Part shown: one piece after another, positions 17,461-64,000 of the stretch
Position numbering within the stretch: the stretch's first letter is position 1
Layout of the letters: each line of letters opens with the position of its first letter
The notes under the pieces: model-generated
The model's database searches: none
The model's input: only the letters and a program-made list of their open reading frames with translations
Told to the model about the DNA's origin: nothing
Translations under genes and position numbers: made by a program
From: Tetramitus jugosus
Taxonomy: Eukaryota; Protista; Heterolobosea
DNA: 64,000 bases
Reading direction: 5' to 3'
Assembly: GCA_937625935.1 (NCBI GenBank)
Contig: OW569364.1
Span: 62,001 to 126,000 of the forward strand

Positions 17461-18795
17461 ATAGTATCAAATGTTATTAAAGAACCAAAGACTTCTGAGG
17501 AGAGAAGTGAGAAGCAACAACCGAGGAGTATATGCAAAAATTTGGAATCCATTTTTGAGAAAGAAGAGAAGAAGACCTTCACACAAAACTGGTGATTCAT
17601 ATCTGCATTGCTCCTACTCATTTGACAAATGGACAATGGTTAAGGCATGTGACCCAAGTGATTTGGATGCAGAGAGAAGGTTTTGGTCAACATTTTCAGA
17701 GATCCAAGAGATTTGCTGAAGATCATTTCGAAGCTTTTAAACTCAGGCTTAAAGAGTTGAGCAAGAAGATATGTACAACAAAACTATAGATGACTTGACA
17801 GAACAAAATTTCTCAGTGCTTATCCTCTCAAAAAATTTGGTAGATTACGCAGTAGAGGAGAGATCATCAGTATTCTAAATACTGGAATTCGAGTGATAGA
17901 AGTCTTCGTTCTAACAGCCTTGGCTCTACTAATAATGTTACCAAAACAGCAATACGTTTGCTTGAGAAGAAACTTTTCTGTTTTTCAGCTCCCTGCTTTT
18001 TCAACCTTCACTTAACGGTGTTGCTTTTCTCAAATGAAAAATGAAAAATGCAATTAAAAATTCACTGTTACGTAACTGGTCACTCATGTCCGTGATATTC
18101 CAAGATCTTGGTAGAAATTCTAGCTATGAAGTTAATGAGACTGCCGCTGTGTTATAGTCTCATAGGACAACAAAATGATTTCCAAGTGCTGTACAACTGG
18201 TCCAAATCAACAACACTCCATGGCAAATACAAGAACAACAAGACGAAAAAGAAGAGTTCTTCCAGTGTTTCAGAAACTGAGCAAGTGGTCTGATGACCTT
18301 ATTGAAGAATTGAAGATCTCTTGGGTAGCCTTAAGAAGAATTATTCGTGTGAAACAGACGCAATTTGTGATTTCATCAAGCTCATATTGGCTACCAGAAG
18401 GATAATTATATGTAAATTTCATCACTTTAAGCTTAAAGTGAAATGAGACAGTAGGTGATGTTGTGAATGTTTTCTTACCTATTTTATCTTTTCCTCAATT
18501 CTTGTCGGATATAATCATTCCTACAAAAATTGAATAGAAACATATCCAACTGTTGTATAAGTGTATTATTGAAAAACAATTTCAAATTTTTCCGGGTTCT
18601 ATTGTATTGTTCAACCCTATCATATATTTATTTATTTGGTATTCAATGCATTACTATGCATTTCTTAAAACATAGATTTTTATTGATTTACAGATCAATC
18701 TCGACAAAGATGATATCTCCTAATTATGAATTGTGAATGGGATCAATATTAGTTTTGTTACGTTCCTTTTTCTGAAAAAATAACATCACAAAGGC

Positions 18796-20252
18796 CTCCA
18801 CCAACTTATGTTAGACCACCAGCTGGAAATCCAAACCCAGCAAACTTGCCAGTGGAAAGAGCCTTGTACAGAATCAATTGTGGTAGCACTGTGGATTACA
18901 CTGACACCAGAGGAAAGAAATGGGCCAAGGATCAATACTACGTTGACCCGACTACTGTTGATCGTTTTGATAACATTCCATGGGCACCATTGGAACCTCA
19001 TCCATATGGTGTTGATGGTTGCTATGACGAAACCATTTACTTGACCGAGAGATACTTCCCTGACGGGTTCTCTTATCTCTTCCCTAATGTTCCAAATGGC
19101 AAATGGCTCGTCAGAGTTCACTTTGCTGAGTTGTACGCTGGCAATTTCATCTTGTATGATCCACTGAATCCAAATCAAGGATTGAAAGGTACAGGTGCAA
19201 GAGTGTTCAGTGTGCGAGCCAATGGTGTTACAATGTTGCCAAAGGTCGACGTTTTCCAATCTATTGGACCTTACTCTGCAATTGTTCGAGAGTTCTATGT
19301 TGATATCAATGGAGAAAACCAAATCAAGTTGGACTTTGTGAAGATTGTGGAATCACCAATGGTTTTCGCCATTGAAATAGTTCATGCTGCTGATGTTGTT
19401 CCAGCTCAATTGCTACCAACAGGAAGAAAACAAGGTATTCCGTCATTGTACATGGACTACGGTGATTATTATCAAAATCCTATTATGACAATGCCAGAGG
19501 GTGGTAAACTCACCAAGCCCGTCAGCTATGTTGAGATTGCTGATTACTACAACAATCCAAACAACTTCCCATTCACTGGATGGAGAAGCACTCCATACTC
19601 TGCCCAGTTCGCAATGAAGGCTTACACTTATCTGAGAGTTCCTAAGGCAGGTGACTACAAGATTACACTTGACAGTAATGATGGTTCAATCATGTGGATC
19701 TGGACTGACACACAGGGCAAGGGAACACCAGTAGAGATCAACGACGACGGTAACCACGTTGCAACACAAATCCCTGCTGTAGTGAAATTCCCATCCCCTG
19801 GTTTCTATCCTGTCCTTTTGTACTACTTCCAAGGTCAAATCAACTGTGCATTGAGACTCTATTGGATGACACCAGATGACGACTGGAACACCTATGTGCC
19901 ATACAGAAACACTGGTCGTGTCATCGCTCCAGAATTCTGGTCGTATGATCCTTCGGCCATTCCAGCGGTCATCAGTGCTGTCAATCCAAACCATGGGCCA
20001 GTTGCCGGTGGTAACGTTGTCACAATCTCTGGTGCTGGTTTCAGTGATAGAAAGAACACAAAGTGCAGATTCAACCATCCAGGCAAGGGATCCGCTAACG
20101 CTACTGCCACATATGATGTCACTGGTAACAATGTTTCTTGTACTGTTCCAGAAATGTTGGGAGGCATGGGAAGTGTTCAAGTTGTTGTTTTTGATGCAGC
20201 TGGGGCTGTGCTCAAAGAATCCAACAACGCCAATTACTTCTACGATTTTTAA
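18796..20252 (+). pseudogene. 5'-truncated paralog of the malectin-PA14-IPT gene (frame still open)
   Basis: Homology to the first copy begins abruptly at ctccaccaacttatg (=11441); no signal peptide or first malectin; no upstream in-frame ATG before TAG at 18750. Confidence 0.75.
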
Positions 20253-20321: not shown

Positions 20322-21131
20322 TCAACATCCCAAAACACCCTTGGCTCTATTCCAGAACTTGTCACGGTCAGCCTTTCCATTGTAACCACCATTGATCTTC
20401 TTGGTGATGATATCAAAGGAGGCTTGAGTGTTCTGATCAGCATACTGGTTCAATGATCTAGTTTTCCAGTACCAAGCAGCAATCTTGAATCCCCATTGTG
20501 GTGTAGCAGCAAGTGTTGGGTTTTCTTCCAAATCGACACCCAAGTCTGCACCAGCAGTTCTGTAGTTGGCTCTGCCTGTCAATTGGATTGGACCTCTGCC
20601 CTTGTATCTTGTACCATCACCTGGGTAAATGTTGCCAAGGTTCTTTCTGCCTTCATAAGCAGCACCAGAGGCAATTTCTTCCATGTATCTCAACTCTGCA
20701 GACTCGTGAGCCAATTGAGCCAAGAAGGACGACATTCTTGAACAGGTGGTAATACTGCCCCAGGACAAGGCATCGTTAATGTGGCTAATGTAGCCGTTGG
20801 CCTTTGAGTTGGACAAGTTTGGCATAATGGCCTTGAGTTGATCCATGGAAAGGACGCCATTAGATGAATCAGAGGCAACTTCTTCGGTAGTATTCTTGTT
20901 AATGTACTTCTTCTTGAGGGAGGCAACAATAGTTTTGGCGTTTTTAGCCTTATGGATAGCATTGTTCCACTTTCCCAAGACCTTCTTGACCTTTGGATCA
21001 GAAATCTTGGACAAGTCAACCTTCTTTTGAACCAGCTTTTTGGAGAGCTTTGAGTTGGATGGGGCAGCTTGGGAGACGGCCAAGATTGCCAACAACAAAA
21101 TGGCAGCAATTGCAATAAGAGAGAATCTCAT
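20322..21131 (-). CDS. Secreted glycoside hydrolase family 19 (lysozyme/chitinase, endolysin-like)
   Basis: Signal peptide MRFSLIAIAAILL; FLAQLAHES, GDGTRYKGRGPIQLTGRANY, INGGYNG motifs. Confidence 0.93.
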   Translation of the reverse strand: MRFSLIAIAAILLLAILAVSQAAPSNSKLSKKLVQKKVDLSKISDPKVKKVLGKWNNAIHKAKNAKTIVASLKKKYINKNTTEEVASDSSNGVLSMDQLKAIMPNLSNSKANGYISHINDALSWGSITTCSRMSSFLAQLAHESAELRYMEEIASGAAYEGRKNLGNIYPGDGTRYKGRGPIQLTGRANYRTAGADLGVDLEENPTLAATPQWGFKIAAWYWKTRSLNQYADQNTQASFDIITKKINGGYNGKADRDKFWNRAKGVLGC

Positions 21132-21555
21132 TATAGTTTGTAGTAGTGTGAATGTAATATGTTTCTTGGTAACCCCACGAACGAAGAACGAAAAGAACAA
21201 AAAACGCCAAGTGAGGGGGATCAAGTTCCAGGTGGTAATTGGATGATGGAGTTTTCTTTGTGCTACCCTATCTTGCGCAGCAACCTTGCTGCCCCGAGCG
21301 GAGCTATCAGCGAAACGTCATCAGTCCTTCCCGTTAGACAGCTGAAATCACCAAAAGAGTGGTCTCCTCTGTTGCTTTTCAATCCTAACACTGTATCTCC
21401 TACCGAGGAAGGGATGATGATTCTTCTCAGACCTTGCAACCAAATGTTTGTTGCCCCTTTGTTCTTTAGATCATCCATTCGTCAAATTGATTCGTCAGAC
21501 TTCTCTTCATCTAGGATGTTTCTTCGTCCAAGTTCTGTTAAAACATATAATAGAT

Positions 21556-46970: not shown

Positions 46971-48038
46971 ATGAAACAGATAGTTACTCTTGTGTTGCTC
47001 ATTGCTGTGCTGGGCATAGTTACTCACCGGTTCCAGGTGAATGCAGAGACTTGTGTGGTTAAAAATGGAAAGGTATGTTTGAGAGCTATACCAAGAATAG
47101 ATTTTTTTGACAGTCGGTTCACACAATTATGATATTAGATGCCACCTGAAGGTTCGTGTGAAGGGCCGATAGCAAGAATTGTGCTCCAACGACAAAGTAC
47201 GAAAGAACTAGGTGTCAATGGAGTATGCAATGAAAAAACTGTATTGTACTTTGTTGATGGGGATCAAGATCAACCAAAGTGTGGTCAGTGTACACCAGGT
47301 ACATCTGGCTTTCATGGAGCTGAAAGGACCTGTAAGGTCGATGAATTTTGTTCAGACGATGGCAAGTGCTCAAAAATCAAGTCTCACAAATTGTATGGAG
47401 CAGCTTGTCCGTACGACAATGGAATACGAGATAGTATAAACGGTTTCTGTGGTCCTGGTTTGAGATGTATTCAACACAAATGCTTGCCATGCGAGAATGG
47501 TGAGATAGATATGGACACTGGAATGGTCTGTGTAAATAACCAGTATACATACAGTGCTGTTGACAAGATGCTCTATGAACCAACTCCAATGATTCTAGTC
47601 TCTATCATAGCTCTGTACGTTGCCTATCAGGCAGTGTTGGGTACAGGAGTATTCGTGAAGTTTATCGTCAAGAGAAGAAGGAGAGCAAACAGAAACAAAC
47701 AATTAGAACTCCAAAGTAACCAAGGCGAAGACCAAGATCCAGCATCACTATTCCTTAGCCAGTCTCGAAAGGGATTCGTTGATCCTTATGCCGATAGTAG
47801 TGACGAAGAAGAACCGGACGAAAGTGAAGATGATTATGACAATTCTGAAGACGACGACAGCTATGAAGGGAGAATATTTGAAGACAGAGATGAGAATGGA
47901 GGAGTTAGGTACTACACTGTTCGGAATGGAAGATCTGTCTGGTTGTCAGAGGCAGAGCTAGCGCAGAATAGAAGATCTCTACCAACAAGGAATAGAACCA
48001 CTCCTAAAGAACTACCAAAGGTACCCTTTCATAGATAA
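46971..48038 (+). CDS. Cys-rich type I membrane protein (intron 47073-47138)
   Basis: Signal-peptide exon spliced in phase 0 to a Cys-rich ectodomain, TM helix and acidic tail. Confidence 0.8.
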
Positions 48039-48099
48039 TCAAATCTCCCCGAGATCTTGCTCCTGTGTAAATAAAAATTCTCAACGAACATATCCCGGC

Positions 48100-48545
48100 C
48101 GTAAATTATGGTTCCCTAGCAGTGGGGCAACTTTCGGGCACTCAATTGATATTCTTGAGCAACTCCTGTAGTATCTTCGGAGCAACAACAGGCTCCAAGT
48201 AGGCCAAGGTATGATGGCAGCAACAAACTTCAAAATTGCCCAGATTTGCCACAATTCACTGTTAATCACTTGCTCTTGAAGTCTTCCCAAGAGAATGTAG
48301 AATCAGAACTCTCAGGTCTATTGTCAGTAAATCGTATCTCCACTAGTTCCATACCATTGCTCAAGAGCATACTCTCAAAAAGCCATTGTTATATAGCTTC
48401 AAGAAGTGTGATGTTCACCACTGGTTCTGCCAAAGTGGTCAAATTCAAGGTCAAACCAGTCATAGACCTCCTTGTGAATCTTGTGGTACTTGTTTCATAC
48501 TTCAAGAGGAATTCAATTCTCTTCCATAGTTTTGGTAAAAACTGG
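48100..48545 (-). pseudogene. Methionyl-tRNA synthetase pseudogene fragment
   Basis: KYHKIHKEVYDWFDLEFDHFGRTS (48492-48420) and RPESSDSTFSWEDFKSK (~48318-48268) match eukaryotic cytosolic MetRS; stops, frameshifts and large deletions. Confidence 0.8.
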
Positions 48546-48637
48546 AAGAGCTCAAGACTGGTTAAAAAACAAAACTTGCGTCTGATGTTTATTGAGTACA
48601 TTGTGAATTGTTGAACGTAACTTCTCCAAGATCTATC

Positions 48638-48997
48638 TCACGATAGGCCTGCGTACTGCTTGTCGCATCCCTTGATATGATTGACCAAACACTGCTTCAG
48701 AAAACCTATCGCTTCATCATTGATTGTTTGGATATTTTTGAGTTGGCTTTCGAACTTTTCATGTTCTGCTCTATGTCGTATCCCTTCCAAATGGTTGTAT
48801 TGGGAGATGAGCTTTTCCTCACAAGCAAAGTGAATTCCAAAGTAATTTAACAGGTTGTTGAGGCTTTCCTGAGTCCGTTTCTGATCCAGTTTATTTACTA
48901 GAGAGAAGATGGTTTTGTGTTGTGAGTTCAACTCGTCATTCTTGACATCGAATGATAGATCCCACTCAAAAGGAGAAGGAATTTCGAACTGGGTCAT
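48638..48997 (-). CDS. Myohemerythrin-like protein (Naegleria Nfa1 type)
   Basis: IPSPFEW, QH, HFACEE, HRAEH, LVNHIKGCD: complete di-iron ligand set in 119 aa. Confidence 0.92.
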   Translation of the reverse strand: MTQFEIPSPFEWDLSFDVKNDELNSQHKTIFSLVNKLDQKRTQESLNNLLNYFGIHFACEEKLISQYNHLEGIRHRAEHEKFESQLKNIQTINDEAIGFLKQCLVNHIKGCDKQYAGLS

Positions 48998-49883
48998 CGG
49001 TGTGTGTTCGTTTTTTGTTGTTGAGTATTGTTGGAGGGTTTATTTACGTCATTCACATGATTGCTATTTGACTCGTTTTGGATATGGTGATAGCGTACAG
49101 TTCATTTATTGGAGGTCAGTTCATACTGCTCAATCAACTGCTCCAGTGAGGGTAGATGTTCTTCAGATAACTCTCTGGTACTCAAAAATTCATCATTGTA
49201 GAGTTTGCAACTGTGAAAGAATTTCTAAAGCTTTAGAATTGTTTTCCATACGCCCAATTACTTGACGAACTTCAGTTAGAATGAGTTTCGAACAATCAGC
49301 CTTTCTGCGATAGTATACTCTGGCATTTTGAGAGAAATGTTTGTAGAATTTCTCCAGAACTTGCACAAGCCCGAGTGCAGTTACACCCATTGGTAATTTT
49401 CGTACAGAAGAAAATGAGTATCTTTTGTCTTCAAGTAGAAATGGTTGAAGTGCTGGGATTGTATTGGCCCATATTTTGTTAACATGATATTGTTTGGGTT
49501 AAAAAATATATTACCAATCCTCAAGTTATTTCCATTGGTCTTCTCGAAATCCTTTTTGTTGATTGCATGTGTGTAAAGCCAATCTTCATATGCCTTCTCA
49601 TACGAGTATCGACTTTTCTTGTCAGATTCTGGAGAATATAGCGGCAGATTATTCCAAGCTTCTTCTGTTTCATTTGCTGGTCCCTTCCAGTTCTTGACGA
49701 AGTAGTCGTATGAACTGGTGTACATCAATGGTACACGATCTTCAGGTCTATCGTGTTGGTTAACATTCCATTCTAAATCAGTAGCACTCATCAACCTGAT
49801 CCCAAATTCACTGTCATTGTTGTTGACTTCTGTGATAATTTCATTTCTTGAGAGATGAATTTGACAATTGATGCAAGAAAAGT

Positions 49884-51625
49884 TTACAGTTCCGACGGTT
49901 TAACAAGATGATGTTCGATTAGGACTTGCTTCTTCACCACCAAATTGGATATGAACGTCTGGTAATGGCGGTCGTGGTACACATGATTCCCTGTCACAAT
50001 TCCCATTTGCAGTTTCATCCACACTTGTTCCCTTGTTTCAGTGGACAAAAGATTCTCTTGTGTTACACCCACTGTTCTGCAAAACTTTCTGTAGAGATGA
50101 GTGAATATCTGAATTGGTACCAAATCATTAGGATTGTTTGTTCTCTCAATCTCTTCAGACTCGAGAATGAACTTGATGAGAGAGTTAACAGAAGCTTTCA
50201 ATTTCATACCAGTGTTTGAAAAGTACGCTGGAAGGGCTGGCCAGATATTGGTTCTGCTATATCTGTTGGTAAAGTCGATATAGGCAGAGTTCATCTTCTT
50301 CAATAGTAGAGCAATCTCTGTACTCTCAATTTGTTTGGCTATATCAATTGGCTGCTTGACCTCCTGTGTAAACTCGCAAACAACAAATCTTCTGGAAATT
50401 GCACCTTTTGAGTCGTCCCAATTACCAAAATGATTGCCAAAGAACATTCCATGACTCTTCCATTTTTGTGTCTTCGCTGTGTTATACTTGGACGATATTG
50501 ATACTCTCACCACAGATGATTTTCTGGATATCCTGTGGCATTCCAAAATCTTTCTTCGCTTCAGGACAAGTATACATTAACTTGCTAGAGAGTGCATCCA
50601 AACCAAAGCTCTTCTCAAAGTTACCACAAGTCAACACTCCAACTTGAGTTTCATCAAAGAACATTTCCAATATTTGTGCGATGGTAGATTTTCCAGATTT
50701 GCTTACTCCAAAAATGTAGGGGGCAATCTGCCAACTATCTCTTTCTCCAATTTCATACAGCATTCTGCCACAAAACACATATATCCAATCAATTACAGAT
50801 CTCTCCAAATTTTTGGTGAGTCAATATACGTTCGAAAAGAGGTGTCTGAATAGTTCTCCAGTCTGTAACAATATCTTCAGTAAAATCTACTGGAAAATAT
50901 TTGCAAGCAACAAGCTCCCTCTCAGCTACAGTCAAATCTGAATACTTCTTGAATATATCCTCTCTTCCGAAATAAATACCATTGGTGAATGAATAGACAA
51001 GCCTATCTGGTGTCAATTCAGGAAATTCTCTCGTGGTTGTTATACCCCTCAAACTTTTGATGGAATGCTCCACACAACTACGGTTAGCAGTAATCATCAT
51101 TAAATATTTCAGACCAAATACATGTCTGTTAGGAGTATTGTTGACAAATGATTCAATAGTTTCGAAAAACTCCCAAGTTTGTGTTGCTATTCCATCATCT
51201 GTATAAATGGGCTTCATCACATTGCCGTTGCATTTTCTGTAATGATGCATGTTCGCGTATCTGTATAAAAACTATAGATAGCGTTGATTGTCATTCTTGA
51301 CTTCACCCAGTTCTGACCTTCTAAAAAAGTTATAATTCTCTGGTAGTGGTGTACCATTGCTCAATTCACAAAGTTTAACTTGATGCTTCAGAATCTGGAA
51401 TGTATTTGAGCAAATGGCTTCATTTACTGGTAAAACTTCTGTCTCCTCCTCTGACATCAATTCGTTATTCTCATTCTCTTCATCATAATCTTCTTCCATC
51501 AGTGCTAGAGAGAGCTCTCCACCTTCAAGTTCATTGTCATGCTCTTCGGATATTAATTCGTGACTCTTTTCAGAACTTGTGTTAATGAGTGCATTGTTCC
51601 CTGTTTCACTTTCTGCTGAATTCAT
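49884..51625 (-). pseudogene. D5-like SF3 helicase of NCLDV/PLV type
   Basis: VYSFTNGIY, FCGRMLY...WQ, Walker A GVSKSGKST, TCPE Walker B, FGN...ISRRFVV; one TAG (51274-51272) and two frameshifts (~50810, ~50490). Confidence 0.88.
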
Positions 51626-52197
51626 TGCACCATCTTCAACAGTGTCATCAAATTGTTTGTCTTCTTCACTGACGTGTTCTACTGTTTGCTATGTCAGAAC
51701 CTCTGTACTCTTCTTTCTTCTCTTTGAAGAAGACTTGTGTGTTTACAATTTGCTTCTTCGAAGAATTACGACTGATAGTGCTTTAAAATGCTCAACACAT
51801 GCGATTCTCCAACCATTTACTTTGAGTTTTGTCAAATTATCCACAAGTATATCTCTTCTAACAGCTTCACGAATATCTTGTGATGCAGTTTTGTTGAAAT
51901 AATTCTTCACATCTTCCAGAAAGTAACTGAATACATCTCTGATGAAGGACTCAAAACCATACCTATCTGTAATTCTTCTTTCAACAGATTTATTTCTGCC
52001 AGACAGAAGTCCACGACAGAACTGCCGAAACAACAAAAGCATCCTTTCTATAGAATGAACTGTATTCAAATCAACAAGTTGACTCAAGCTGAACATTGCT
52101 TTACTATACTCAGATATACTTTAGAAGAATGGATGTTATCAGGACTCGTGTGAATTGAAAAATGACCGAGGTTTACAAAGATAACTAAAGCTAGCAT

Positions 52198-52965
52198 CTA
52201 CAAGCAATATATACTATGCACTCTTTTCGTTGTTTTAGGAGCCTTATTTCCTCCGACGCCGCTATCCGAATATTTTCGGTGTTTGCACTTCACATGGAGC
52301 AAATTCTCCAACTGTTCTGACTTCTCGGCAGTGTTGGTAGCATCATCAGCATTATCTCCAACATACAACTGTGCTACTATTATCATATAATGAAATCCCT
52401 CCCCTTTGTACTTTTTACCGTATCTGCTGACTACACCCGCTTGTAGATGATCGTTGTCTGAGGCAGATGCTCTACCAACATAGAATTCCTGAACATCATC
52501 GTGATCAACCCAATGAAGAACATCTAAAAAATAAGGGTAGCGATAGTATCGACATCCAGATTGTAGAATTGGGTGTACGCTAGTTTGACTTCTGGTACGT
52601 TGCTTGCAATGGACTTCCCATCTAAAGAGAATATGTATTTCCCTTGTCCTCTGTGTGTTATCTGTACACAACTTTTTGGACTCATCACAGGGTGGTGGAA
52701 ATCGTCAATTTGTTGCAAGAACTGGAAGAGTGGACTATCAGTCTTCATGTGTTTCAGAAACAGGTTGATTAAGCTTTTGTCAAGAGCAATGAGCTTCCAA
52801 CGATACTGTTTCATATCCTCTTCATCAACTCTCACAGTGTTGTCATCATCAGCTCCAATATTGGCATCATTGTCGTCTCGAACAGGACTTCTATCACCAT
52901 CATCCACTGTGCCTTGTGGACTATCAGTTGCCAATTCTTCATCATCAAACTCTATTGTCCAGTAG
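52198..52965 (-). pseudogene. GIY-YIG-like nuclease remnant (frameshifted; possibly circularly permuted)
   Basis: FYVGR...SRY...Y...MIIV...EQLENLL...GG...SIYCL; two overlapping ORFs joined by one frameshift. Confidence 0.45.
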
Positions 52966-53080
52966 CTTCTTCTGACATGTTAGCAGTTGTGATGTTTTCC
53001 TGTTTATTTTGAATTTCACGTTGGTTTACAAAATGTTATCAAAATTGAAGGTGCGAATTCAACAACACCAGAGAACTATT

Positions 53081-54187
53081 CTAATAAAATTGAAAGTTGG
53101 TGTCATTGCGAAGAAAGTGTTCAGTTCTTTGCCTTCTAGATCGATTGGGAACCAGTTGAGGTACTGCAATAGTGCTGGACTCAAAGTCCATTCTTACAAT
53201 TGTTGCTCTTTGTCTGTGATCCTCTCTGTAACTGAATTGTCTATTCCTCTGGCGATTTGAGCCATCTGTCACACGAGGATTTAGACTTGGGATTAGCTGT
53301 AAATTGTCTCTGTAAACTTGCATTACCTTGTCACTGGAAACACCTTTCACTTTGTACACGGGTAGATGTGAAGCACTTATAGTTAGCAACAACATCATCA
53401 AGGATATCTACCCAGACTTTTGTTTTGAATCTCGCCATATGTAAGTAAAACAACCGTTTCAGTGTACCGTTGAATCGTTCTATACATCCTTGTGATTGAG
53501 GTCTATATGCAGAACTGAATACTTGTTTCACAGAAAACTTTTTACACAGGGCCGTCATCAGTTTGTTCTTGAATTCACCACCATTATCAGATTGAATGAT
53601 TGTTGGACGAGTGTTAACTTCCAACACTGATTTCACTTCTTTAGGTTTCAATTGTTTTACCCAAACATACTTGGAGAATATGTCAATTACTGTTAGACAG
53701 TATTGATAACTCTAGATTCTCATGTTTTCTACTGTCACCCATATCAATCAAATCCATTTGCCAGCGCACATGTGGTCCTTCTGGAACTGCTACAGGACGA
53801 ACTACCTTCATTTTGTTTGCAGCTGGTCTGTATAGTTGCCTCGTTTCGTCATTGGATATGAACTTTTCTACATCTGGATATGCCAATGTATTGTTGTTTT
53901 ACACGTTCATAGAATTTGTCTCTTCCAAATCCACCTGTTAGAGGATTGTCTTATAACTTGCTCAGAATTTCATCAATGCTGTTCTGTGGAATAATCTGAC
54001 GTAGATCCATCACTAGAATATCCTTTTCATTGAAGGTTTCTATCTTGGCTGAACTCCACCTTCTTTTGAATCTAGCCAAAGCTGACCTCGAGTTCTTTGT
54101 TGGTAATTTTCCATCTCTGACAAAATCCAAAGCTTGGTTGTACTCTTCATCAGTTATATGATGGATGTAGTTTGGATTGATACCCAT
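53081..54187 (-). pseudogene. rve/DDE integrase of Polinton/virophage type
   Basis: GGFGRDKFY, WQMDLIDM, LTVIDIFSKYVW, IQSDNGGEF, PQSQGCIERFNGTLKR; one stop and three frameshifts. Confidence 0.92.
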
Positions 54188-54373
54188 TTACATTGACTGT
54201 ATATAAAGTTTAATCTTCTTCGAATAAAGTTATTCGTTATTCTCTATACCTCTGTACTGGTCAGTGTCCTGTTACCATGCACTATAGCATGTCCCTCTAG
54301 TCACCCATTGTCCATATACATATACTCAACCGCGTTACTCCCAAACTGTTATAGGTCTTTTGACCAAAAACAA

Positions 54374-54998
54374 GTAATTCGTTATTCGTATATACACCAA
54401 ACACTCTACAATGCAGAATACAAATGCAGTAACATATAATTGAATTTATTGAAACAGATAATTATTGAATGTAACAATCTGACTAACACAGAAAGTAAAT
54501 CCAGAATTCCACAGATTGCCCCCAGTTTCACCTCAAAAAATTCAAAAACACATGACAGCACTCCAATAGCGAACTGATGCAACGAATAACATTCTCTTTA
54601 CTTGAATAGTAACAGAGCAGTATTGAAATTTGGGACAACTTTGTGAATATTTTCCTCAATTATTGAAATACCCTGAAGTCCCGCTATGAATATGTATGGA
54701 GAGTGGTATCAAATCACCAGATAAGTGCCACTATCGATATACATATTCATAGTGGGACTTAACTAACACTCAAATCTGGGTGGAAATATGGTTGGATATA
54801 CTGTCAGATTTCTGGTTTATTATATGAGGAAAATATTTTGAATGAAGTCCCATTATTCGAGAAATGCCTGTTACTCTATCTCAATATTTAGTTCTAAACT
54901 TGTGTATTGGATTTGACATGTTTTTGAGGATATTTAGGAAGGCTATAGAATTGCAATAATTTGTTGTTTCTTGGTGTAGATATAGAATAACGAATAAC
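54374..54998. repeat. Nested imperfect inverted repeat (~630 bp) with central 22-bp-stem hairpin
   Basis: Arm pairs 54374-54400/54971-54998, 54646-54658/54825-54837 (13 bp perfect) and 54676-54697/54739-54760 (21/22). Confidence 0.85.
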
Positions 54999-55183
54999 GG
55001 GTCTTCTGTTACTGACTGGTAAATACTTGTATAACTGATTGTGCTTTACTACGAATACAGTAGATTGTTTTCATCTTGCATCTAGATGGGACTAAAGAAA
55101 TGTTGGTATCACTGTTCGCTTCTTAATTTGGACGAATAACTAGTTTCACTAGAATAGTTGAAACCACTACAAAAAAACCCATT

Positions 55184-55219
55184 GTTGTGTATAAATGGGC
55201 ATGCCTATTTATACACAAC
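55184..55219. promoter_or_regulatory. 36-bp palindrome with a TATAAA box on each strand
   Basis: gttgtgtataaatgggcatgcctatttatacacaac, one mismatch, 30 bp upstream of ATG 55250; promoter role is inference. Confidence 0.65.
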
Positions 55220-55249
55220 CACACAAACTCATCAGAAACAAACAAAAAA

Positions 55250-56416
55250 ATGTTGCCAATCATCAACCGACACATCAACAAACGCAATGGTTTGGTGAGT
55301 ACCTTGTTTAGAACAATACAAACGAGTGCACAAGAGACTCCTACTGAGACTACGGTTCTTCATTGGGCCAACTCATATGACCTTGATGATCAGAGGAAAT
55401 TTCGACACCTCATCAAGGCCGTTGTAGAGAATGATACTAGCCGGAAGAGAATTGCACAGGATGATGAAATCATGAAGAAACTTTTGCAAGAGAGAGCCAA
55501 AAGATCTAGAGAACTCAAGCTAGAAGTAATCAAACAAATGCCATACGAGGAAGAATTTGACCAAGAGGTAGAAGGATGGAGAGAGAGACATACAGGAAAA
55601 TTCAATGAGGGACAGAATGAAGCCTTGGAGGAACTTCATCAAAGATTGTTCAATGTTCTTGGAGGCAAGATCCACCAGCTAGAGACTTATCTTGACAAGA
55701 AACACGCAGTGTTTGGATGGGCCCAGATTCTAAGTTCATTAGAGGCTGCGATTGTACTGTTTTTGAATGCCAACATTGCTACAAAGTCTTACAAAATCGG
55801 CAGTCTTGAGCTGCTTGAGGGAGTGGTGGCCCGGGCAGAAGATGAAAATAAGCAGATATACGAAAAGATAGCCACGTTCATTAATACCATTGAGTGTGTG
55901 TTGGGAGTGTCTTTGAACTCTTTGCTCAGCTTGATGCTGTTATTGAACAGGTTGAAGAGGAATCCTGCTGCTCATAGAAACTGTTCAAGAGAGGATGTGA
56001 AGGAAGCTACGACGATACTTGTTGCGATTGATAGCAACATTTTGACTCCTTCAGATCCAAGATTATACGTTTCTCACATGATGAAAAATCCACACAATTG
56101 TCCCATTTTAGAGGAACCAGAGCAACGTGCTACTTTGGAGAGAATCACAACAGTCTATATGAATGCTTTGGACTGTATGGGATCATTTTGTTATTATTTT
56201 GGTCTGGATGCACAGCAGTTTGAGGATGAGTATGATGTCGTTAAGGATAGAGATCTGAAGATAGTTCAAACCAAGTTACTTGCATTTTGGATTGATTGTC
56301 AATTGAGAAATAAGGATGTTGTACGAATATCAAAGCTGGTCAAGGAACCAACATTTTTTCACGAAATCAAGTTGCCTAAGGGAACTCCAGAGAGCTCAGA
56401 AGCTGATGGGGAGTAG
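55250..56416 (+). CDS. Intact hypothetical protein with HEPN-like RNxxAH motif and presequence-like N-terminus
   Basis: 388-aa intronless ORF; SSLEAAI ... RLKRNPAAHRNCSREDVKEA; ORF is confident, HEPN call is moderate. Confidence 0.7.
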   Translation: MLPIINRHINKRNGLVSTLFRTIQTSAQETPTETTVLHWANSYDLDDQRKFRHLIKAVVENDTSRKRIAQDDEIMKKLLQERAKRSRELKLEVIKQMPYEEEFDQEVEGWRERHTGKFNEGQNEALEELHQRLFNVLGGKIHQLETYLDKKHAVFGWAQILSSLEAAIVLFLNANIATKSYKIGSLELLEGVVARAEDENKQIYEKIATFINTIECVLGVSLNSLLSLMLLLNRLKRNPAAHRNCSREDVKEATTILVAIDSNILTPSDPRLYVSHMMKNPHNCPILEEPEQRATLERITTVYMNALDCMGSFCYYFGLDAQQFEDEYDVVKDRDLKIVQTKLLAFWIDCQLRNKDVVRISKLVKEPTFFHEIKLPKGTPESSEADGE

Positions 56417-57149
56417 GCTTTTGATGAAGGAGATAGTAGGGTCTTTTTTCGTTTTCTCTATCCATATCCAGAAGAAACAATTCTTGTTTGTAAATCAGCA
56501 ATACTTGTATGAGGTACAGTAGATCCATGACCGAATCCATCTTGCTTCAGGAACCAAAACCAGTTATTCTTCAGTTGTAGATATCTCCTTTTTTAATTGA
56601 GAATAACGAATAACTAGTTTTCATTCTGGAAGTATTCACAACACTGACTTTACGGGTCACTTCACAAATCCACAAACAACAAACTCGCACATCAAAATTA
56701 AACACAAAATTTTTTCATCACACCCTCCGTGGTGAGCGGATGCCGAACAAGCCGGCACCAGTGAACAAGAGTTCACCAATGTATGCTGGTAGTGTCATGC
56801 AAAGTGCCCAAATGAGTTGGTGGTGGTCAATGCGTTGAATTAGGATGATTGCAGCAGTATTCTGGGTCAATGTTGGCCACCAATGTCAGGTGTACCTCTC
56901 TCCGCGTTTCACATGTATGCACAGTGCTGTGCCAACACAAACGAGTGCCATGCCCACATACACTCGCAATCGATGCTCAATCTTTCCAGTGCTTTTGTGC
57001 TTGTTACTAAACAGTAGGGAGTCAATTGTTCTTTGTCCACCATCACAAAGGAAGGTCAAAATATTTCTGTTCTGATCTCTCATATCCATATCGTTGGTTT
57101 CTTCAAAGCACCGCAATCATTGAGAGCTGCACTTGATCCAAGGGGAATG

Positions 57150-57480
57150 CCATCACGTACATACTTTGAGATTTTGACCACATGTGAATCCGTGAAGCTG
57201 TTCGAAGAGAAAATAGTGCTGTCGACAGATAGAAGGATTTAAACTCGTTACAATATATTTTTTCACTAAAGTTGCTCAAAGGCTTTCCAGATCCTAGTAG
57301 CTATTCAGTTCTGAGATTTATAGACTTTGATCCAGATATGAAAGCAGAACAGATCTGATACTTACAATTTCTATTGAGATATGCACAAGAGAATAACTTC
57401 AGAAAGTACAATGGAAATGTTCTACAACATGTTTACACTGGAAATGGAACCGCTTCTCAGACTTGGAGAGCATCCAGAAT
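57150..57480 (+). pseudogene. Second D5-helicase N-terminal remnant
   Basis: *YLQFLLRYAQENNFRKYNGNVLQHVYTGNGTASQTW aligns with RYL*FLYRYANMHHYRKCNGNVMKPIYTDDGIATQTW at 51283-51172. Confidence 0.8.
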
Positions 57481-57769
57481 TGCTCGTTATTCAACACATA
57501 TATGTGACTTGCTTTGATCAAGGTTAGTCAACATATCAAGACTATGAACGGGAAGCGAAATCACCGCTTGGGTAGTTGATCGCTTTCCTTGACGTTGAGT
57601 GCATTGACGCACAAATGGCGCCCAAAAGATCCGTTAACCCAACAACAGAATTCCAGAAATTTCAGTTCCTCTCATATTTCCAAAGGTCCAAATTGACACA
57701 AACAAAAAAGAAAGTTGGACCTGGCCTTGTAACGGTATTTTCCCCCAAACAAACAAAACACAGAAGAAT

Positions 57770-58609: not shown

Positions 58610-61600
58610 TTAGTTGTATTTTAACTTTCCAACATCTTGCAATTCGTTGACCATTTGTTTGACATGCATGTACTGAGCATACTCGGGAGAAACACTGAAT
58701 CTGGTGTACGTGTCGCATATATTGACCAACACTTCATTGGACACTACCAAGAAAATCTCTTCACAATCCGTTGCGGTCGGGTCACTCCTATTCAACACAT
58801 CTCTATACTTTTTGACAACCTTCGCAGGCAGATTACATTCGAAAGGACTGCCTCTTGCAATACAGTCATCGTACAGCCCTATCAAGTGTTGTTGTCGAGT
58901 TTCCAATGTCGCTGTCATATTGTCCATTCTGACTTTCTCCAAGCGTTTCCAGAGGATAACATTCTCCAAGGCAAACTCCTTCTTGGCGTACGATGCAATT
59001 GCATTGTACCCATGTTCATCTCTCAGAAGATTTTGCAATTCCGATTCGATCGTGCTGGTGGCTGTTTTTAACTCACTCATGTAAGTTTTCAGTTTCTCAT
59101 AATTCTCATTTTCGTTATGCAATCTAATTCTTTGGATGAAATGTACGATGACAGGTGTACCACCAAACGCCATAATTCTCAATGAGATGTACAAAATGTC
59201 GAATAGGAACTCAATTATTTTTGCTGCAGAATTAGACGAGGCATTAGCATCGAAGCGGTCAGAGATTCCAATAATATATGAAACTGTCATGATCATCATC
59301 GCTGATACCATGAATATTGATTCAACTCTAAACATTAATGGATCATCCGATCTAAAATGATTCACCACAGTTGATGTAATCTTTTGCAAAAACTTGAAGT
59401 CTGCATTACCCTCTGAATTCTTTTTCAGCTCTCTTCTAATAATTTTCCTGCTCATGATAATTGTACAGTCCCAAACAAATGTAGCGACTATCAGTGCTCC
59501 AATAGACAGAGACATGATAGAGAAGGAGAGAGCATTCACTGCAGAGGCAGCATTTGGCTTGATCACATTCGTTGCTTCCAATATAGAGATAATGACAAAA
59601 TATGAACATGAGGAAATCAATATTGCTGCTCCAATCGTGACATAGAGTAACTTTGATGAGAGAATTCTGAGGAATCTTATCTTCTTTACATTTCGCTTGT
59701 CTAGATCCATGATGGCATACAAGTTTTTCAAGAAAAAGTAGCGCAGCATCTGCCAAAAGTAGATAAATAATGACAACAATACGATCGGGTTCACAATTGT
59801 TAGAATGAGGTAAGCAATGCTATTAACTCCCTTATAGTCTTTAGCATTGTTTGCAGCTATCAACAGAGAGTTTCGTATGATGCCATTTAAAATACATTCG
59901 AGGATAATTGCTGTTAATCCAATATAAGGAGCAAGGAAGCGAGATCTGATTGGCTGCTTTCCTCTCCAAATCATTATCATACAAAGTAAAGCAATAGATA
60001 TCAGTACAAGCATAACGTTGATTATAATACTAGTGATATAGAGTCCGTCAGATGCCTTGTTTGGAGCACTCGAGTCGTAGATTATCATAGCACTGAAGCT
60101 TGTTGTGTGAGTGCAGTGACAAGTAACACTATCATCATCTTCTTTATGAAGCCAACATCCCTGTGTGTACCATGATGAATTGGTATTCTCATCTAAAAAT
60201 CGACATTCATACTTAAGTGATGAATTAAAGTATTGAGTCTCTTTTTTCAATATAATTTCTAACGGATACTCCATGTCAGACAACTTGACCTTTCTGTCTC
60301 CATTTTTGATTTCAAAGTCTACTATTGCTGTGCTGAAGTTTTGATATGTTAGTACATAAGGATTATGTCGTTGATTGTAACTGATTGATTGAACAGTGTA
60401 TACTTGTTGGGGATCCAATGTTCCCACATTAGCAGGCATTGAGACTTCTACCTCGTTAGTATAAATTGAAGCACCACCAATGAGTGAGCCACTCTCCTTT
60501 TTCACTGATAATTGATAGGCAGCAGTGGCGATACTTGTTTGATTTTCTGAAACTAGCTTTGTGCTGGCAATCAATGTTGAGATCTTGGATATTGTGGAGA
60601 GTATTGGATTAACTGTGTGAAGAGGTTCAGCTTGATACTGCACGAACAAATTTGAAATTGCTCTGGCTAAGGATTTCGTCGGTGAGTCTCTTAGTTCAAC
60701 CTTTCCTCGTGTGCATAATCCAATGACCTTATCAACTAGTAAATGGGTATTCTTTGTGATATTTGACGTATTATCGTCCAGCTGTAATTCAGATAGAATC
60801 TCCATAGTATCTATCTTACTTGTAAGAGAATCAATGGTGATGAGTGTATTATTTAGAGTTTCTTCGTCCAATGTTGAATCCATGAATTCAATCACTTTCT
60901 CCACAATAGCAGATTGATTCTTCACCTGAATCCTGTTCAATGATGTCGCAATGATCGGCAGTAAGTTACTTGAGGACTGATCCTTGAGTTTTGATAATAA
61001 GTTAATGAGTGAGCTCGATGTATTATTTGATTCAATTAGACTGATATTGAATTGGGTTACTGATTCAATTCCATAGAAATTGGCGACCAAACCTTGGATT
61101 GTTATACAACTGGAATTTAAATAGGGTAAAACCGTATAAATTGTTGGGATATTAGAAGATTGCTGTAGAGGTATAAATCTCTGGCGCAATGTGTCAAAGT
61201 AGGAAAATGAATATTGCAAGGGGTAGGAGTCGATATGATCAGTTGCATTGATGCTCAACTCAAATTGAGTGTCCAGAGCAGCACCGACACATGGAGAACA
61301 TGTTGCAAATCGTATTGTGGAAGCAGTCGCAGTTCGTGCAGTCACTGAAGCCTCTCCATATTGTGTTAAGTTCTTATAGTTCACTCGCAGAATGAACGAA
61401 TAGCTGCAATTTGGCTCTAGATAATTTTCGTCTAATACCAGCGGTACAACTTGATACGCGTCACCGTACACTGTTAGTTGGCTCTTCGTATCATTATTCT
61501 TCATTACGAGCCATTTGTATCCCAGCAAGTGATTAATTCGATTTTTTGAGACTGTGGCTTCTATTCGGATCCTCTTTCTTGGGTCGATCACACTTGATAA

Positions 61601-64000
61601 GGACGTAATTATTTGAGGAATAGGAATATCCTCGTTCTCATCTATTACAGTAATTATGACTTGAGCACTTGCAAAACGAGAGGGATCCTGGAAATCAGGA
61701 GCAAACATTACAACGATCACATATGTACCGATAGATTCGTTGAACAAGAATAATGAGCCAGAGGGATTCATATTGTTGCAGGACTGACAATACCAAGTGA
61801 ATCGTGGAATAGTACCATTTTTGACTACCAGATCACGACTTTCAGCTGCACTAATGTTGTAGGTTTTGTGGGCATACACCATTCGATTTCCACCAGAGAT
61901 CACCGCTTGAGGCAACACTGGGATAGTCGTAACATTAATGAATACATTTGCGGAGCTTGGACCTACTGTCAGAGTTATTTCAGAATATCCAGACTGAACG
62001 GGTATAAATTCTATTCTCTGAAAGTTTTGTAATGTGGAGTAGTTCTTGCCACTAAACGACCATATTCTATACTCATCATCGGCACACGTTGGCAGATTTT
62101 GAACTCTCGCAATGAATGAATAAGGTTCGAACTGTCTTACTACAATATGCGGATCTTCAATGAGTATATTGGTGTTATCAAGCAGCAAATCTGGCATTTG
62201 GAAAGATGCATGTGCTATTCCAACTTTCCTTGCATTGTGAAATACTTCTACCTCAATAATCGAAGGTAAACGACCCATAAATCTAGCCGGCAGGGATATG
62301 TTCGCTGTATTGAGAGTTGACAAATAGGAAATCACACTCGATTTCATATCAGCTATTTCATGCATTGACCATGTATAAGTAAAATCTCCCTCAAAACCTG
62401 CTATTGTTGCAGTAAAAGTTGCATCTTCACAGTATTTTGTTGGTTGTATGATTACAATAGTGACTGTGACAGTTTTGTTGCATGATGATCCTGCAAATCC
62501 TTCGTTACAAACGCAAATATCGCTACCTAAACATGTTCCATTCCCAGAGCATACAAGAGGATCACTCACACTCCTACCAAAACATTGGCCACACATCATG
62601 TCCTCTCTAGTAGTATTGTTGGGTTGAAGTTTTAACAAGGTAATGGAAAGAGGTCGATAAGAGCCAAATTGTATGCCATCGAGATAAAGTCCATTTAAAT
62701 TCCACGATTGAGGATCGTGACAATTACTGAACCACCATCCAGATTCTTGTGAAATTGCACAATTAAGAGCGGCGACACTTGAATAATTATCGTACGTGCT
62801 GAAGGGCACTCCCATTTGCGATATCTCTGGTCCCATTTGAACTGTCAGAGGATAGTTTTGTGTAGAAGAACCAACTTGCATTTGTCCAACATATGATGAT
62901 AGTTCGATGTCAGATCCCCAAATATCCAAACTAGCTTGTTGTGAAGAATTTGCTAATAGGTTCAGATTTTCAAGACCAATGAAAAAGTCACCATCCAGTT
63001 CACCAAAACCATTGACATAATCCGTCCATGGCTTGTTAAAATCGACGGTCCCATGTATTCTCTTCTGAATAACGAGAGATGCAGCGGTCATATCACAATA
63101 GACGAGCATCGACTTACAATACGGATAAATTCGATAAACCCCAGAAGGAGAGCTTGGCCATAAATCGAGAATACTTTTACAGTCAATCAACTCACTAGCT
63201 TCTGTAATGTTAAAGAATTGAACTTCCACTACTGAACCGGTCGAATTAAGATAGGGAGCATAGAGTACTGTTATGTTTCGGGTGATATCCGCGCCATTGC
63301 CAGTCATTTGGCTTACAATTGAAGACATTGATGCTCCCCAGTCATTGTACTGAGCATTCAACACTGAGTGACCATTATACACAATACTCTTGTTAGTAAA
63401 TTGAAACCTATTACGATTGACTCTCACTTGCCCTGAAATCCTTAATAGACTGTCAAACCCTGTCGAATGGTTGTCAGTAAAATTGTTCCCTCTAAAGTCA
63501 GATAGCGAACATATCTCTGGGAATACGAGAGAAACGAACACGTCTGATACTATATTATCAATGAAAGTATTACCAATGATAGACATTGGACCTGTGCAGT
63601 AAACAGGACTTTCGAGAGAGAGAAGTGAAGAAGCAGTCATATTTTGAAAAATATTCCCTCGAATCGTCAAGATCCCTTCTCCCTTCTTGTTCACTCTCAC
63701 CGGACCTGAACATCCTTGAAATGAATTGGCTCCTATCGATAAAGTCCAACCTGTTCCTGATTCACTTGTGGTGTTGAGAGGCTCTTGTAAATTAAAAAAC
63801 ATATTGCTTGATACACTGACAGCTACAGAAGCTACATCTACCTGGACGCCCTGTGATGGTCCTGCGAATGAATTACCATCGATCAAGAGCGTTCTCCCAG
63901 ACTTCATGACTATATTCATGATCTGAGTTCCATTCGTTTCAAATATATTGGTGCTAATAAGAGAGGATGCTGTTGGTACTAGGTCGGTTGTAGATAAGGA
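58610..64000 (-). CDS. Large receptor: beta-helix, fibrinogen-C, EGF, REJ/PKD, GAIN/GPS, multi-TM and C-terminal RGS (5' end outside window)
   Basis: VYCDM...IQKR...GWWFSNC fibrinogen; CSGNGTC EGF; WYTQGC...TCHCTHTTSFSA GPS; KKEFALENVILW...DTYTRF RGS; frame open to 64000. Confidence 0.9.
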   Translation of the reverse strand, partial: SLSTTDLVPTASSLISTNIFETNGTQIMNIVMKSGRTLLIDGNSFAGPSQGVQVDVASVAVSVSSNMFFNLQEPLNTTSESGTGWTLSIGANSFQGCSGPVRVNKKGEGILTIRGNIFQNMTASSLLSLESPVYCTGPMSIIGNTFIDNIVSDVFVSLVFPEICSLSDFRGNNFTDNHSTGFDSLLRISGQVRVNRNRFQFTNKSIVYNGHSVLNAQYNDWGASMSSIVSQMTGNGADITRNITVLYAPYLNSTGSVVEVQFFNITEASELIDCKSILDLWPSSPSGVYRIYPYCKSMLVYCDMTAASLVIQKRIHGTVDFNKPWTDYVNGFGELDGDFFIGLENLNLLANSSQQASLDIWGSDIELSSYVGQMQVGSSTQNYPLTVQMGPEISQMGVPFSTYDNYSSVAALNCAISQESGWWFSNCHDPQSWNLNGLYLDGIQFGSYRPLSITLLKLQPNNTTREDMMCGQCFGRSVSDPLVCSGNGTCLGSDICVCNEGFAGSSCNKTVTVTIVIIQPTKYCEDATFTATIAGFEGDFTYTWSMHEIADMKSSVISYLSTLNTANISLPARFMGRLPSIIEVEVFHNARKVGIAHASFQMPDLLLDNTNILIEDPHIVVRQFEPYSFIARVQNLPTCADDEYRIWSFSGKNYSTLQNFQRIEFIPVQSGYSEITLTVGPSSANVFINVTTIPVLPQAVISGGNRMVYAHKTYNISAAESRDLVVKNGTIPRFTWYCQSCNNMNPSGSLFLFNESIGTYVIVVMFAPDFQDPSRFASAQVIITVIDENEDIPIPQIITSLSSVIDPRKRIRIEATVSKNRINHLLGYKWLVMKNNDTKSQLTVYGDAYQVVPLVLDENYLEPNCSYSFILRVNYKNLTQYGEASVTARTATASTIRFATCSPCVGAALDTQFELSINATDHIDSYPLQYSFSYFDTLRQRFIPLQQSSNIPTIYTVLPYLNSSCITIQGLVANFYGIESVTQFNISLIESNNTSSSLINLLSKLKDQSSSNLLPIIATSLNRIQVKNQSAIVEKVIEFMDSTLDEETLNNTLITIDSLTSKIDTMEILSELQLDDNTSNITKNTHLLVDKVIGLCTRGKVELRDSPTKSLARAISNLFVQYQAEPLHTVNPILSTISKISTLIASTKLVSENQTSIATAAYQLSVKKESGSLIGGASIYTNEVEVSMPANVGTLDPQQVYTVQSISYNQRHNPYVLTYQNFSTAIVDFEIKNGDRKVKLSDMEYPLEIILKKETQYFNSSLKYECRFLDENTNSSWYTQGCWLHKEDDDSVTCHCTHTTSFSAMIIYDSSAPNKASDGLYITSIIINVMLVLISIALLCMIMIWRGKQPIRSRFLAPYIGLTAIILECILNGIIRNSLLIAANNAKDYKGVNSIAYLILTIVNPIVLLSLFIYFWQMLRYFFLKNLYAIMDLDKRNVKKIRFLRILSSKLLYVTIGAAILISSCSYFVIISILEATNVIKPNAASAVNALSFSIMSLSIGALIVATFVWDCTIIMSRKIIRRELKKNSEGNADFKFLQKITSTVVNHFRSDDPLMFRVESIFMVSAMMIMTVSYIIGISDRFDANASSNSAAKIIEFLFDILYISLRIMAFGGTPVIVHFIQRIRLHNENENYEKLKTYMSELKTATSTIESELQNLLRDEHGYNAIASYAKKEFALENVILWKRLEKVRMDNMTATLETRQQHLIGLYDDCIARGSPFECNLPAKVVKKYRDVLNRSDPTATDCEEIFLVVSNEVLVNICDTYTRFSVSPEYAQYMHVKQMVNELQDVGKLKYN

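What the first reader, a model, noticed from the sequence alone, without database searches (positions are those of the whole stretch)
49100..57500. Endogenous virus/Polinton-like element combining an NCLDV-type D5 helicase with an rve integrase
Seen: co-oriented, intronless minus-strand remnants of a DDE integrase, a GIY-YIG-like ORF, a D5/SF3 helicase and several orphan ORFs. No capsid, packaging ATPase or pPolB is recognisable. Established: SF3 helicase plus rve integrase occurs in Mavirus-type virophages and some Polinton-like viruses, and the FCGRMLY..WQ..GxxxSGKST context looks like giant-virus D5 proteins. Inference: a possibly undescribed integrating element family of amoebae, capsid-less or with capsid genes lost.
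Basis: partly seen in the sequence, partly recalled or inferred. Interest (0 to 1): 0.8.

Follow-up and report, generated by a model that had tools for sequence, protein, structure and literature searches.

The report
Broken polinton-like element with giant-virus helicase
A single-celled eukaryote carries a broken 7.8-kb stretch of DNA, missing from sister alleles, that holds a retrovirus-type integrase and a giant-virus-type helicase; it is likely the cut-down remains of a polinton-like integrating virus, and this copy cannot show whether the family has capsid genes.

Summary
The core observation holds. A decayed rve integrase (53081-54187) and a decayed D5-type SF3 helicase (49884 to about 51790) lie co-oriented among orphan frames. 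The integrase groups with polinton, PLV and virophage integrases, not LTR pol (moderate support). The helicase belongs to the D5 type found on giant-virus contigs.

Block 48040-57603 is absent from a sister allele, and an inner 7.8-kb piece (about 49209-57021) is absent from a third allele. Near-identical and divergent copies occur in the same genome and in soil and groundwater samples, with different breaks. The inner piece has no TIR or TSD, and another copy runs on past its right end. It is therefore a truncated fragment, and 'capsid-less' is unsupported.

GIY-YIG was not confirmed. The right third holds an intact plus-strand orphan of 388 aa, a later 220-nt insert and a second, opposite D5 remnant.

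Best reading (0.55): a dead fragment of a polinton-like element, copied here by recombination or repair. No independent intact contig joins this helicase and this integrase. SF3 helicase plus rve is a known pairing; the giant-virus-type helicase is the new twist.

The parts
48040..57603 (.). Polymorphic block, absent from a sister allele
   Evidence: Joint 48039->57604 in X1 (depth 33), X4 and X5; letters between the sides not known; no TIR/TSD above shuffles
48399..48548 (-). Broken fragment of a methionyl-tRNA synthetase gene, likely copied from a host gene
   Evidence: Pfam tRNA-synt_1g E 2e-7; best PDB match cytoplasmic MetRS; 48424-48503 matches a longer contig in all 4 runs
48638..48997 (-). 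Intact hemerythrin ORF, outside the inner insert
   Evidence: Pfam PF01814 E 4e-9
49209..57021 (.). Inner 7.8-kb insert: truncated element fragment, no TIR or TSD
   Evidence: X5 joint 49201->57027; other copies diverge after 57024 in X1, X8, X10; TIR score 18 vs shuffle mean 19
49193..49498 (-). Orphan frame D, crossing the left junction
   Evidence: no family hit at threshold
49381..49899 (-). Orphan frame C, with a junction near 49813 relative to L001
   Evidence: L001 and the P0002 lineage share a different frame right after D5 (50% over 46 aa)
49884..51790 (-). Decayed D5-type SF3 helicase, no primase domain detected; 2 stops, 2 frameshifts, 285-nt and 44-nt deletions; start position approximate
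   Evidence: tree; AEP test negative
51743..52120 (-). Orphan frame B upstream of D5
   Evidence: a 23-nt piece recurs inverted at 57188-57210 upstream of the second D5 remnant
52198..52979 (-).
   Evidence: covered without difference by an X4 contig 51947-52969
53081..54187 (-). Decayed polinton-type rve integrase; 1 stop, 1-2 frameshifts, about 90 codons missing
54188..55249 (.). AT-rich spacer between divergent genes, with an 85-nt hairpin (54676-54760), a 36-nt palindrome (55184-55219) and three copies of a 14-nt motif
   Evidence: GC 0.337; hairpin region z -5.1, 0 of 200 shuffles as stable
55250..56416 (+). Intact 388-aa helical orphan (ORF-H), multi-copy, with a conserved R-x4-H motif and a basic N-terminus
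   Evidence: P0005 and P0154 about 40% identical; X10 contig 55244-56526 and X4, X8 contigs cover it; folds unusable
56601..56614 (+). Fourth copy of the 14-nt motif
56696..56915 (.). Secondary 220-nt insert absent from other copies
   Evidence: Joint 56695->56916 in X1, X4, X5
57188..57472 (+). Remnant of a second, different D5-family copy in the opposite orientation, outside the inner insert
   Evidence: 57272-57472 is 76% identical to P0004 but 48% to the window's main D5

Best explanation
This is a dead, truncated piece of mobile DNA with an rve integrase and a giant-virus-type D5 helicase, likely derived from one polinton-like integrating virus family and likely copied into this spot by repair or recombination, not by its own integrase. 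Shown: both genes, their decay, the presence/absence alleles, extra copies, and no TIR or TSD. Inferred: the intact parent would integrate with the DDE integrase and replicate with the SF3 helicase, borrowing primase and polymerase from genes lost here or from a host or helper giant virus. The helicase was likely taken from a giant virus. Capsid genes, if any, would lie beyond the cut ends or in the deletions. The fragment landed in an older polymorphic patch that already held host-gene scraps and a remnant of a second family member, and it is now decaying differently in different strains.
For: The integrase's closest relatives are stand-alone rve proteins of 250-590 aa. In a quick ML tree of 88 rows it sits in a 7-row clade (SH-aLRT 97) inside a 41-row group (89) with 15 viral-contig integrases and 0 of 21 rows I labelled pol-like from Pfam RT/H2C2 domains or source names. 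Five of those 15 contigs have Pfam-confirmed double-jelly-roll or virophage capsids. D5 relatives in IMG/VR lie on giant-virus contigs (13 loci, 5 named GVMAG; NCLDV-type neighbours in 3 of the 5 loci checked); the only hit in the phage collection is a 620-kb mollivirus. At least three D5 subfamilies exist, with conserved neighbours, as expected of a mobile family. Intact integrases (P0218, P0226) and an intact D5 (P0004) exist in metagenomes. The integrase and D5 blocks are missing together from the X5 allele. A 14-nt motif occurs 4 times in 64 kb, all within 54229-56614. L001 shares one D5 frameshift with the window but differs at six indels.
Against: No independent contig joins this D5 clade to this integrase clade, and the nearest relatives lie on contigs of 8 kb or less that could not be fetched. 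No capsid, ATPase, TIR or TSD was found. In X1 the D5 block is single-copy (depth 33) while the integrase core is doubled (56), so the two parts do not always travel together. The motif does not occur beside D5, was chosen after seeing the repeats, and 1 of 100 shuffles reached 4 matches. Tree support is moderate, the careful search did not finish, and a virophage integrase (L007) fell outside the group. GC (0.38) is only a little below the flanks (0.39-0.42).
Confidence: 0.55

Rival explanations
1. Patchwork: a scrap of an endogenized giant virus (D5 and its orphan neighbours) recombined after insertion with an unrelated integrase-bearing unit, and the chimera was then duplicated by host processes.
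For: The D5 is of the giant-virus core type; its starred 18-row clade includes P0016 from a 334-kb contig. Copy number differs between the D5 and integrase parts. Other alleles differ right at 52975, between the two blocks. The locus also holds host-gene scraps. Chimeric, allele-specific, TIR-less giant-virus insertions are described in Acanthamoeba (PMC12210455, section 9).
Against: No other giant-virus gene was recognised in 9.5 kb. None of the 12 giant-virus-contig D5 rows falls in the window family's clade. Several D5 subfamilies with conserved neighbours fit a small mobile unit better. X1 depth doubles from about 52940, so a second copy likely keeps the integrase-to-frame-A junction (inferred).
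Confidence: 0.22
2. A capsid-less, self-copying DNA transposon or giant-virus satellite: integrase plus SF3 helicase plus cargo, with no morphogenetic genes, relying on host or helper polymerases.
For: No capsid or ATPase in 7.8 kb. Multiple copies with internal deletions, as in non-autonomous transposon derivatives. A strong central hairpin could be an origin.
Against: The copy is truncated, so absence is uninformative. Related integrases sit with capsid genes. PLV capsids can escape HHpred (PMC11296320, passages).
Confidence: 0.2
3. Assembly artefact or contaminant contig.
For: One frameshift base is not in the X1 contig; Bellas et al. report false stop codons in EVE assemblies (PMC10120064, passages).
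Against: X1 contigs cross the junctions into flanking DNA with no difference (47909-49263, 56995-57633) and match the D5 block exactly; 20 runs in 14 studies hold parts of the stretch.
Confidence: 0.03

Closest known systems
Endogenous polinton-like viruses with primase-helicase and rve integrase (Bellas et al. 2023, PMC10120064; metagenomic contig L002)
   Same: rve integrase of the same broad group; SF3/D5 helicase in place of pPolB; integrated in a protist genome, multi-copy
   Different: No primase domain detected on the helicase, which is of the giant-virus type and only distantly related to that of L002 (E 0.004); no capsid, ATPase or TIR in this copy
Mavirus-type virophages
   Same: rve integrase near an SF3-type helicase (PMC11296320, passages; SF3 class recalled)
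   Different: No pPolB, virophage capsid, ATPase or protease; GIY-YIG unconfirmed
Polintons/Mavericks
   Same: Stand-alone retrovirus-like integrase
   Different: No pPolB, protease, capsid, TIR or TSD in this copy
Tlr1 elements and transpovirons
   Same: Tlr1 pairs rve with a helicase and lacks a canonical pPolB; transpovirons are capsid-less (PMC11161782, introduction)
   Different: Their helicase is SF1; this one is SF3/D5
Degraded giant-virus insertions of Acanthamoeba (PMC12210455)
   Same: Allele-specific, partial duplicated copies, chimeric, no TIRs
   Different: Those lack mobility genes and are silenced; here an integrase is present and parts occur in RNA libraries

Membership tests
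Polinton/Maverick | rve integrase of polinton type | tested here: met
   (group support 89)
Polinton/Maverick | protein-primed PolB | tested here: not met
   No hit in ORF and six-frame Pfam scans of the block; copy is truncated
Polinton/Maverick | TIRs and 5-6 bp TSD | tested here: not met
   TIR scores 18 and 20 vs shuffle means 19; no TSD at the junctions
Polinton-like virus | Double-jelly-roll major capsid, minor capsid, packaging ATPase | tested here: inconclusive
   0 of 19 candidate proteins hit the block; no Pfam/PHROG hit; the fragment is cut at both ends and the orphans were not folded
Polinton-like virus | SF3 helicase-based replication gene | tested here: met
   no primase domain detected
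Mavirus-type virophage | Virophage MCP, protease, pPolB | tested here: not met
   for this copy only
Endogenous giant virus (Nucleocytoviricota) | Core D5 helicase of giant-virus type | tested here: met
Endogenous giant virus (Nucleocytoviricota) | Other hallmark genes (PolB, MCP, A32, RNA polymerase) nearby | tested here: not met
   None found in the block; flanking ORFs look like ordinary eukaryotic genes by eye, three confirmed by Pfam
LTR retrotransposon | Integrase fused to RT/RNase H; LTRs | tested here: not met
   Integrase begins at its own ATG like P0218; no RT; no long direct repeats
Ginger transposons | Integrase clade; lone integrase between TIRs | not tested
   No labelled Ginger sequence was available for the tree
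Tlr1 / transpoviron | SF1 helicase | tested here: not met
   Helicase is SF3/D5
GIY-YIG nuclease (52198-52704) | Profile match | tested here: not met
   weak test (single query, 4-sequence profile)
HEPN RNase (ORF-H) | R-x4-H motif in a HEPN fold (definition recalled) | tested here: inconclusive
   Motif conserved in 3 of 3 sequences; no profile hit over it; models at pLDDT 37-38

The most novel reading that the evidence does not exclude
An undescribed capsid-less integrating satellite of protists that pairs a polinton-type integrase with a captured giant-virus D5 helicase, has no polymerase of its own, replicates from a hairpin origin with a helper giant virus's machinery, and carries an organelle-targeted HEPN-like RNase as an antiviral or addiction effector that stays intact and expressed while the rest decays.
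Probability: 0.12. Interest if true: 0.75.

Novelty: new variant of a known kind. Interest (0 to 1): 0.42.

Why it matters
If the two genes belong to one element, it is a case of a small integrating element taking the core helicase of a giant virus, a transfer so far suggested from trees (10.64898/2026.10.13.758929, passages). It sits in a widespread soil and groundwater protist where the insertion is polymorphic, so intact copies can be sought. The locus also records, allele by allele, how such elements are cut down and reshuffled. ORF-H is the only intact, multi-copy orphan and is the part most worth a functional test. As it stands, the copy is dead and the gene pairing is broadly known.

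Tried and rejected
No whole genome is held, so intact copies could not be sought by tblastn. Viral-contig scans with the window's D5 piece, close D5 relatives, frame G, ORF-H and P0218 gave no locus. The prokaryote collection gave nothing for D5 and only distant integrases (44 loci). A tblastx hit of 56973-57107 to a capsid-like ORF of L003 did not reappear in tblastn and was rejected as a likely linking artefact. Two folds of ORF-H were unusable, so no fold search was run. The ESM Atlas gave only hits of 0.81 or below. The Pfam HepT-like hit (E 0.025) does not cover the R-x4-H motif and is not counted. Rfam found nothing. The spacer is not a long TIR-TIR junction: only short arms were found. 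An open frame across the inner empty site was considered by eye and dropped, because neither observed allele shows it. Bins without cover in RNA-type runs and the small-share runs X13-X20 are not used as evidence. Earlier-finding look-ups by place and sequence were empty. Host lineage was not determined.
Full report
Setting. The window is gene-dense, intron-poor eukaryotic DNA (a 66-nt GT..AG intron is skipped in an X4 contig). No whole genome is held.

Integrase. Pfam finds rve at 53334-53711(-) (E 2e-8). A search of longer proteins returned 59 of 188 candidates; the best are stand-alone rve proteins, some with a chromodomain, and RT-fused proteins rank far lower. The 470-aa P0218 maps over 54187-53084 in four pieces at 71, 70, 60 and 51% identity, with about 90 residues missing. 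In a quick IQ-TREE run (88 rows, 186 columns; the careful search did not finish) the window core lies in a 7-row clade (SH-aLRT 97) within a 41-row group (89). That group holds 15 viral-contig integrases and none of the 21 rows I labelled pol-like. Five of those contigs have Pfam-confirmed capsids, and L011 has an A32 ATPase. One virophage integrase (L007) fell outside the group, and no Ginger reference was included.

Helicase. Four close relatives were found among 61 candidates; P0004 is an intact 733-aa protein. It has 796 relatives at E<=1e-30; 130 of 148 listed ones are 600-850 aa. Profiles give D5/SF3, and no primase domain was detected. Neighbours in L082, L085 and L086 are giant-virus-type genes; the three ORFs tested from L089 and L092 had no hit. 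The phage collection gave one hit, in a 620-kb mollivirus. In a FastTree of 79 rows (L002 dropped for gaps) the window family nests among these D5s but in its own clade, with none of the 12 giant-virus-contig rows.

Decay is real. An X1 contig matches 49910-52969 exactly. L001 has 16 mismatches over 1,930 aligned bases, shares the frameshift near 50814, keeps 285 and 44 nt that the window lacks, and has its own deletions. Base 53711 is absent from the X1 contig, so one integrase frameshift may be an assembly slip.

Architecture from public contigs. Twenty runs in 14 studies hold part of the stretch, 7 of them half or more; I laid 6 of the 20. Three alleles appear. One joins 48039 to 57604 (X1, X4, X5). 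One joins 49201 to 57027 (X5). The third is the window. In X1, unique parts of the block have depth 33-39, against about 53 for collapsed flanks and 33 for the empty allele, which suggests one chromosome copy carries it (inference; contig depth is coarse). X1 also holds a further copy of about 49210-49930 and 52940-57024; this rests on depth and variant joints, and whether the two parts are joined was not displayed. That copy, and contigs in X8 and X10, continue with other DNA after 57024. The ends of homology thus coincide with the X5 empty site, which favours insertion of a 7.8-kb piece over deletion. No TIR or TSD exceeds chance at either pair of ends, and frame D runs across the left junction. 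I infer a truncated internal fragment placed by repair or recombination.

The outer patch. It holds a MetRS scrap, a hemerythrin ORF and a plus-strand D5 remnant that is 76% identical to P0004 but 48% to the main copy. A piece of frame B precedes that remnant. A 220-nt insert at 56696-56915 is missing from other copies.

Other parts. GIY-YIG was not confirmed. No capsid, ATPase or polymerase was found. The spacer holds a hairpin (z -5.1) and a 14-nt motif seen 4 times, all within 54229-56614 (chance mean 0.52; 1 of 100 shuffles reached 4; pattern chosen after the fact). Its copies in the spacer point into the integrase and ORF-H, so a promoter role is plausible but untested. ORF-H (388 aa) is intact and has two stored relatives at about 40% identity, with an identical 26-residue basic N-terminus and a conserved R-x4-H motif. 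It is covered by contigs in X8 (RNA on record), X10 (RNA guessed) and X4 (spliced contig). These contigs show presence in the library, not strand or level. HEPN activity and organelle targeting are my recalled resemblances and are not shown.

Linkage, the weak point. None of 13 D5 loci has rve in the fetched flanks. Two of 125 integrase loci have a D5-type gene, both distant. One is L002, a 22.5-kb viral contig with D5 helicase, rve-chromodomain and ATPase-like genes. Support for one element rests on joint absence from the X5 allele, tight co-oriented packing and conserved neighbours across D5 subfamilies.

Literature. Read as passages: PMC10120064, PMC11702301, PMC7805220, PMC11296320, PMC4642659, 10.1101/2024.09.03.611062 and 10.64898/2026.10.13.758929. 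PMC11161782: first of six parts (abstract and introduction). PMC12210455: abstract, outline and section 9. Endogenous PLVs with a primase-helicase and either recombinase or rve are described. D5-like PLV helicases closest to nucleocytoviruses and occasional D5 capture from them are reported. Five searches showed no paper, by listing, on this particular family; supplements were not read.

Verdict. Real, polymorphic and dead. It likely works like a polinton-like integrating element but cannot be filed as a member of any family from this copy. New variant of a known kind; interest 0.42.

Noticed in passing
window 47600-48010: The two alleles of the flanking gene differ at dozens of sites in run X1, so the host is highly heterozygous or hybrid here.
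   Followed up: no
window 55250-55330: The first 26 residues of ORF-H are identical to those of relatives only about 40% identical overall; identity comes in blocks, suggesting recombination between paralogues or a constrained targeting peptide.
   Followed up: partly
window 55113-55236: Replaced by 32 other letters in another copy (X1, X3, X4), removing the 36-nt palindrome upstream of ORF-H.
   Followed up: no
window 10771-12897 and 18753-20252: Two near-duplicate plus-strand genes that look malectin/PA14/IPT-like by eye (labels recalled).
   Followed up: no
window 20322-21317: Secreted protein resembling glycoside hydrolase family 19 chitinase/lysozyme by eye (label recalled), a possible bacterial or phage-derived gene.
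   Followed up: no
window 58610-64000: Large receptor-like protein with fibrinogen, EGF, GPS and RGS domains.
   Followed up: partly
L004:1152-4049: rve integrase fused to an OTU protease domain on a contig named as a giant-virus MAG.
   Followed up: no
L002 and L003: Two viral contigs of 22-23 kb with sister rve-chromodomain integrases (support 99); L002 has a D5 helicase gene, L003 several GIY-YIG genes.
   Followed up: partly
window 49399 to 51954: Run X8 shows a joint that skips the whole D5 gene, another deletion variant.
   Followed up: no
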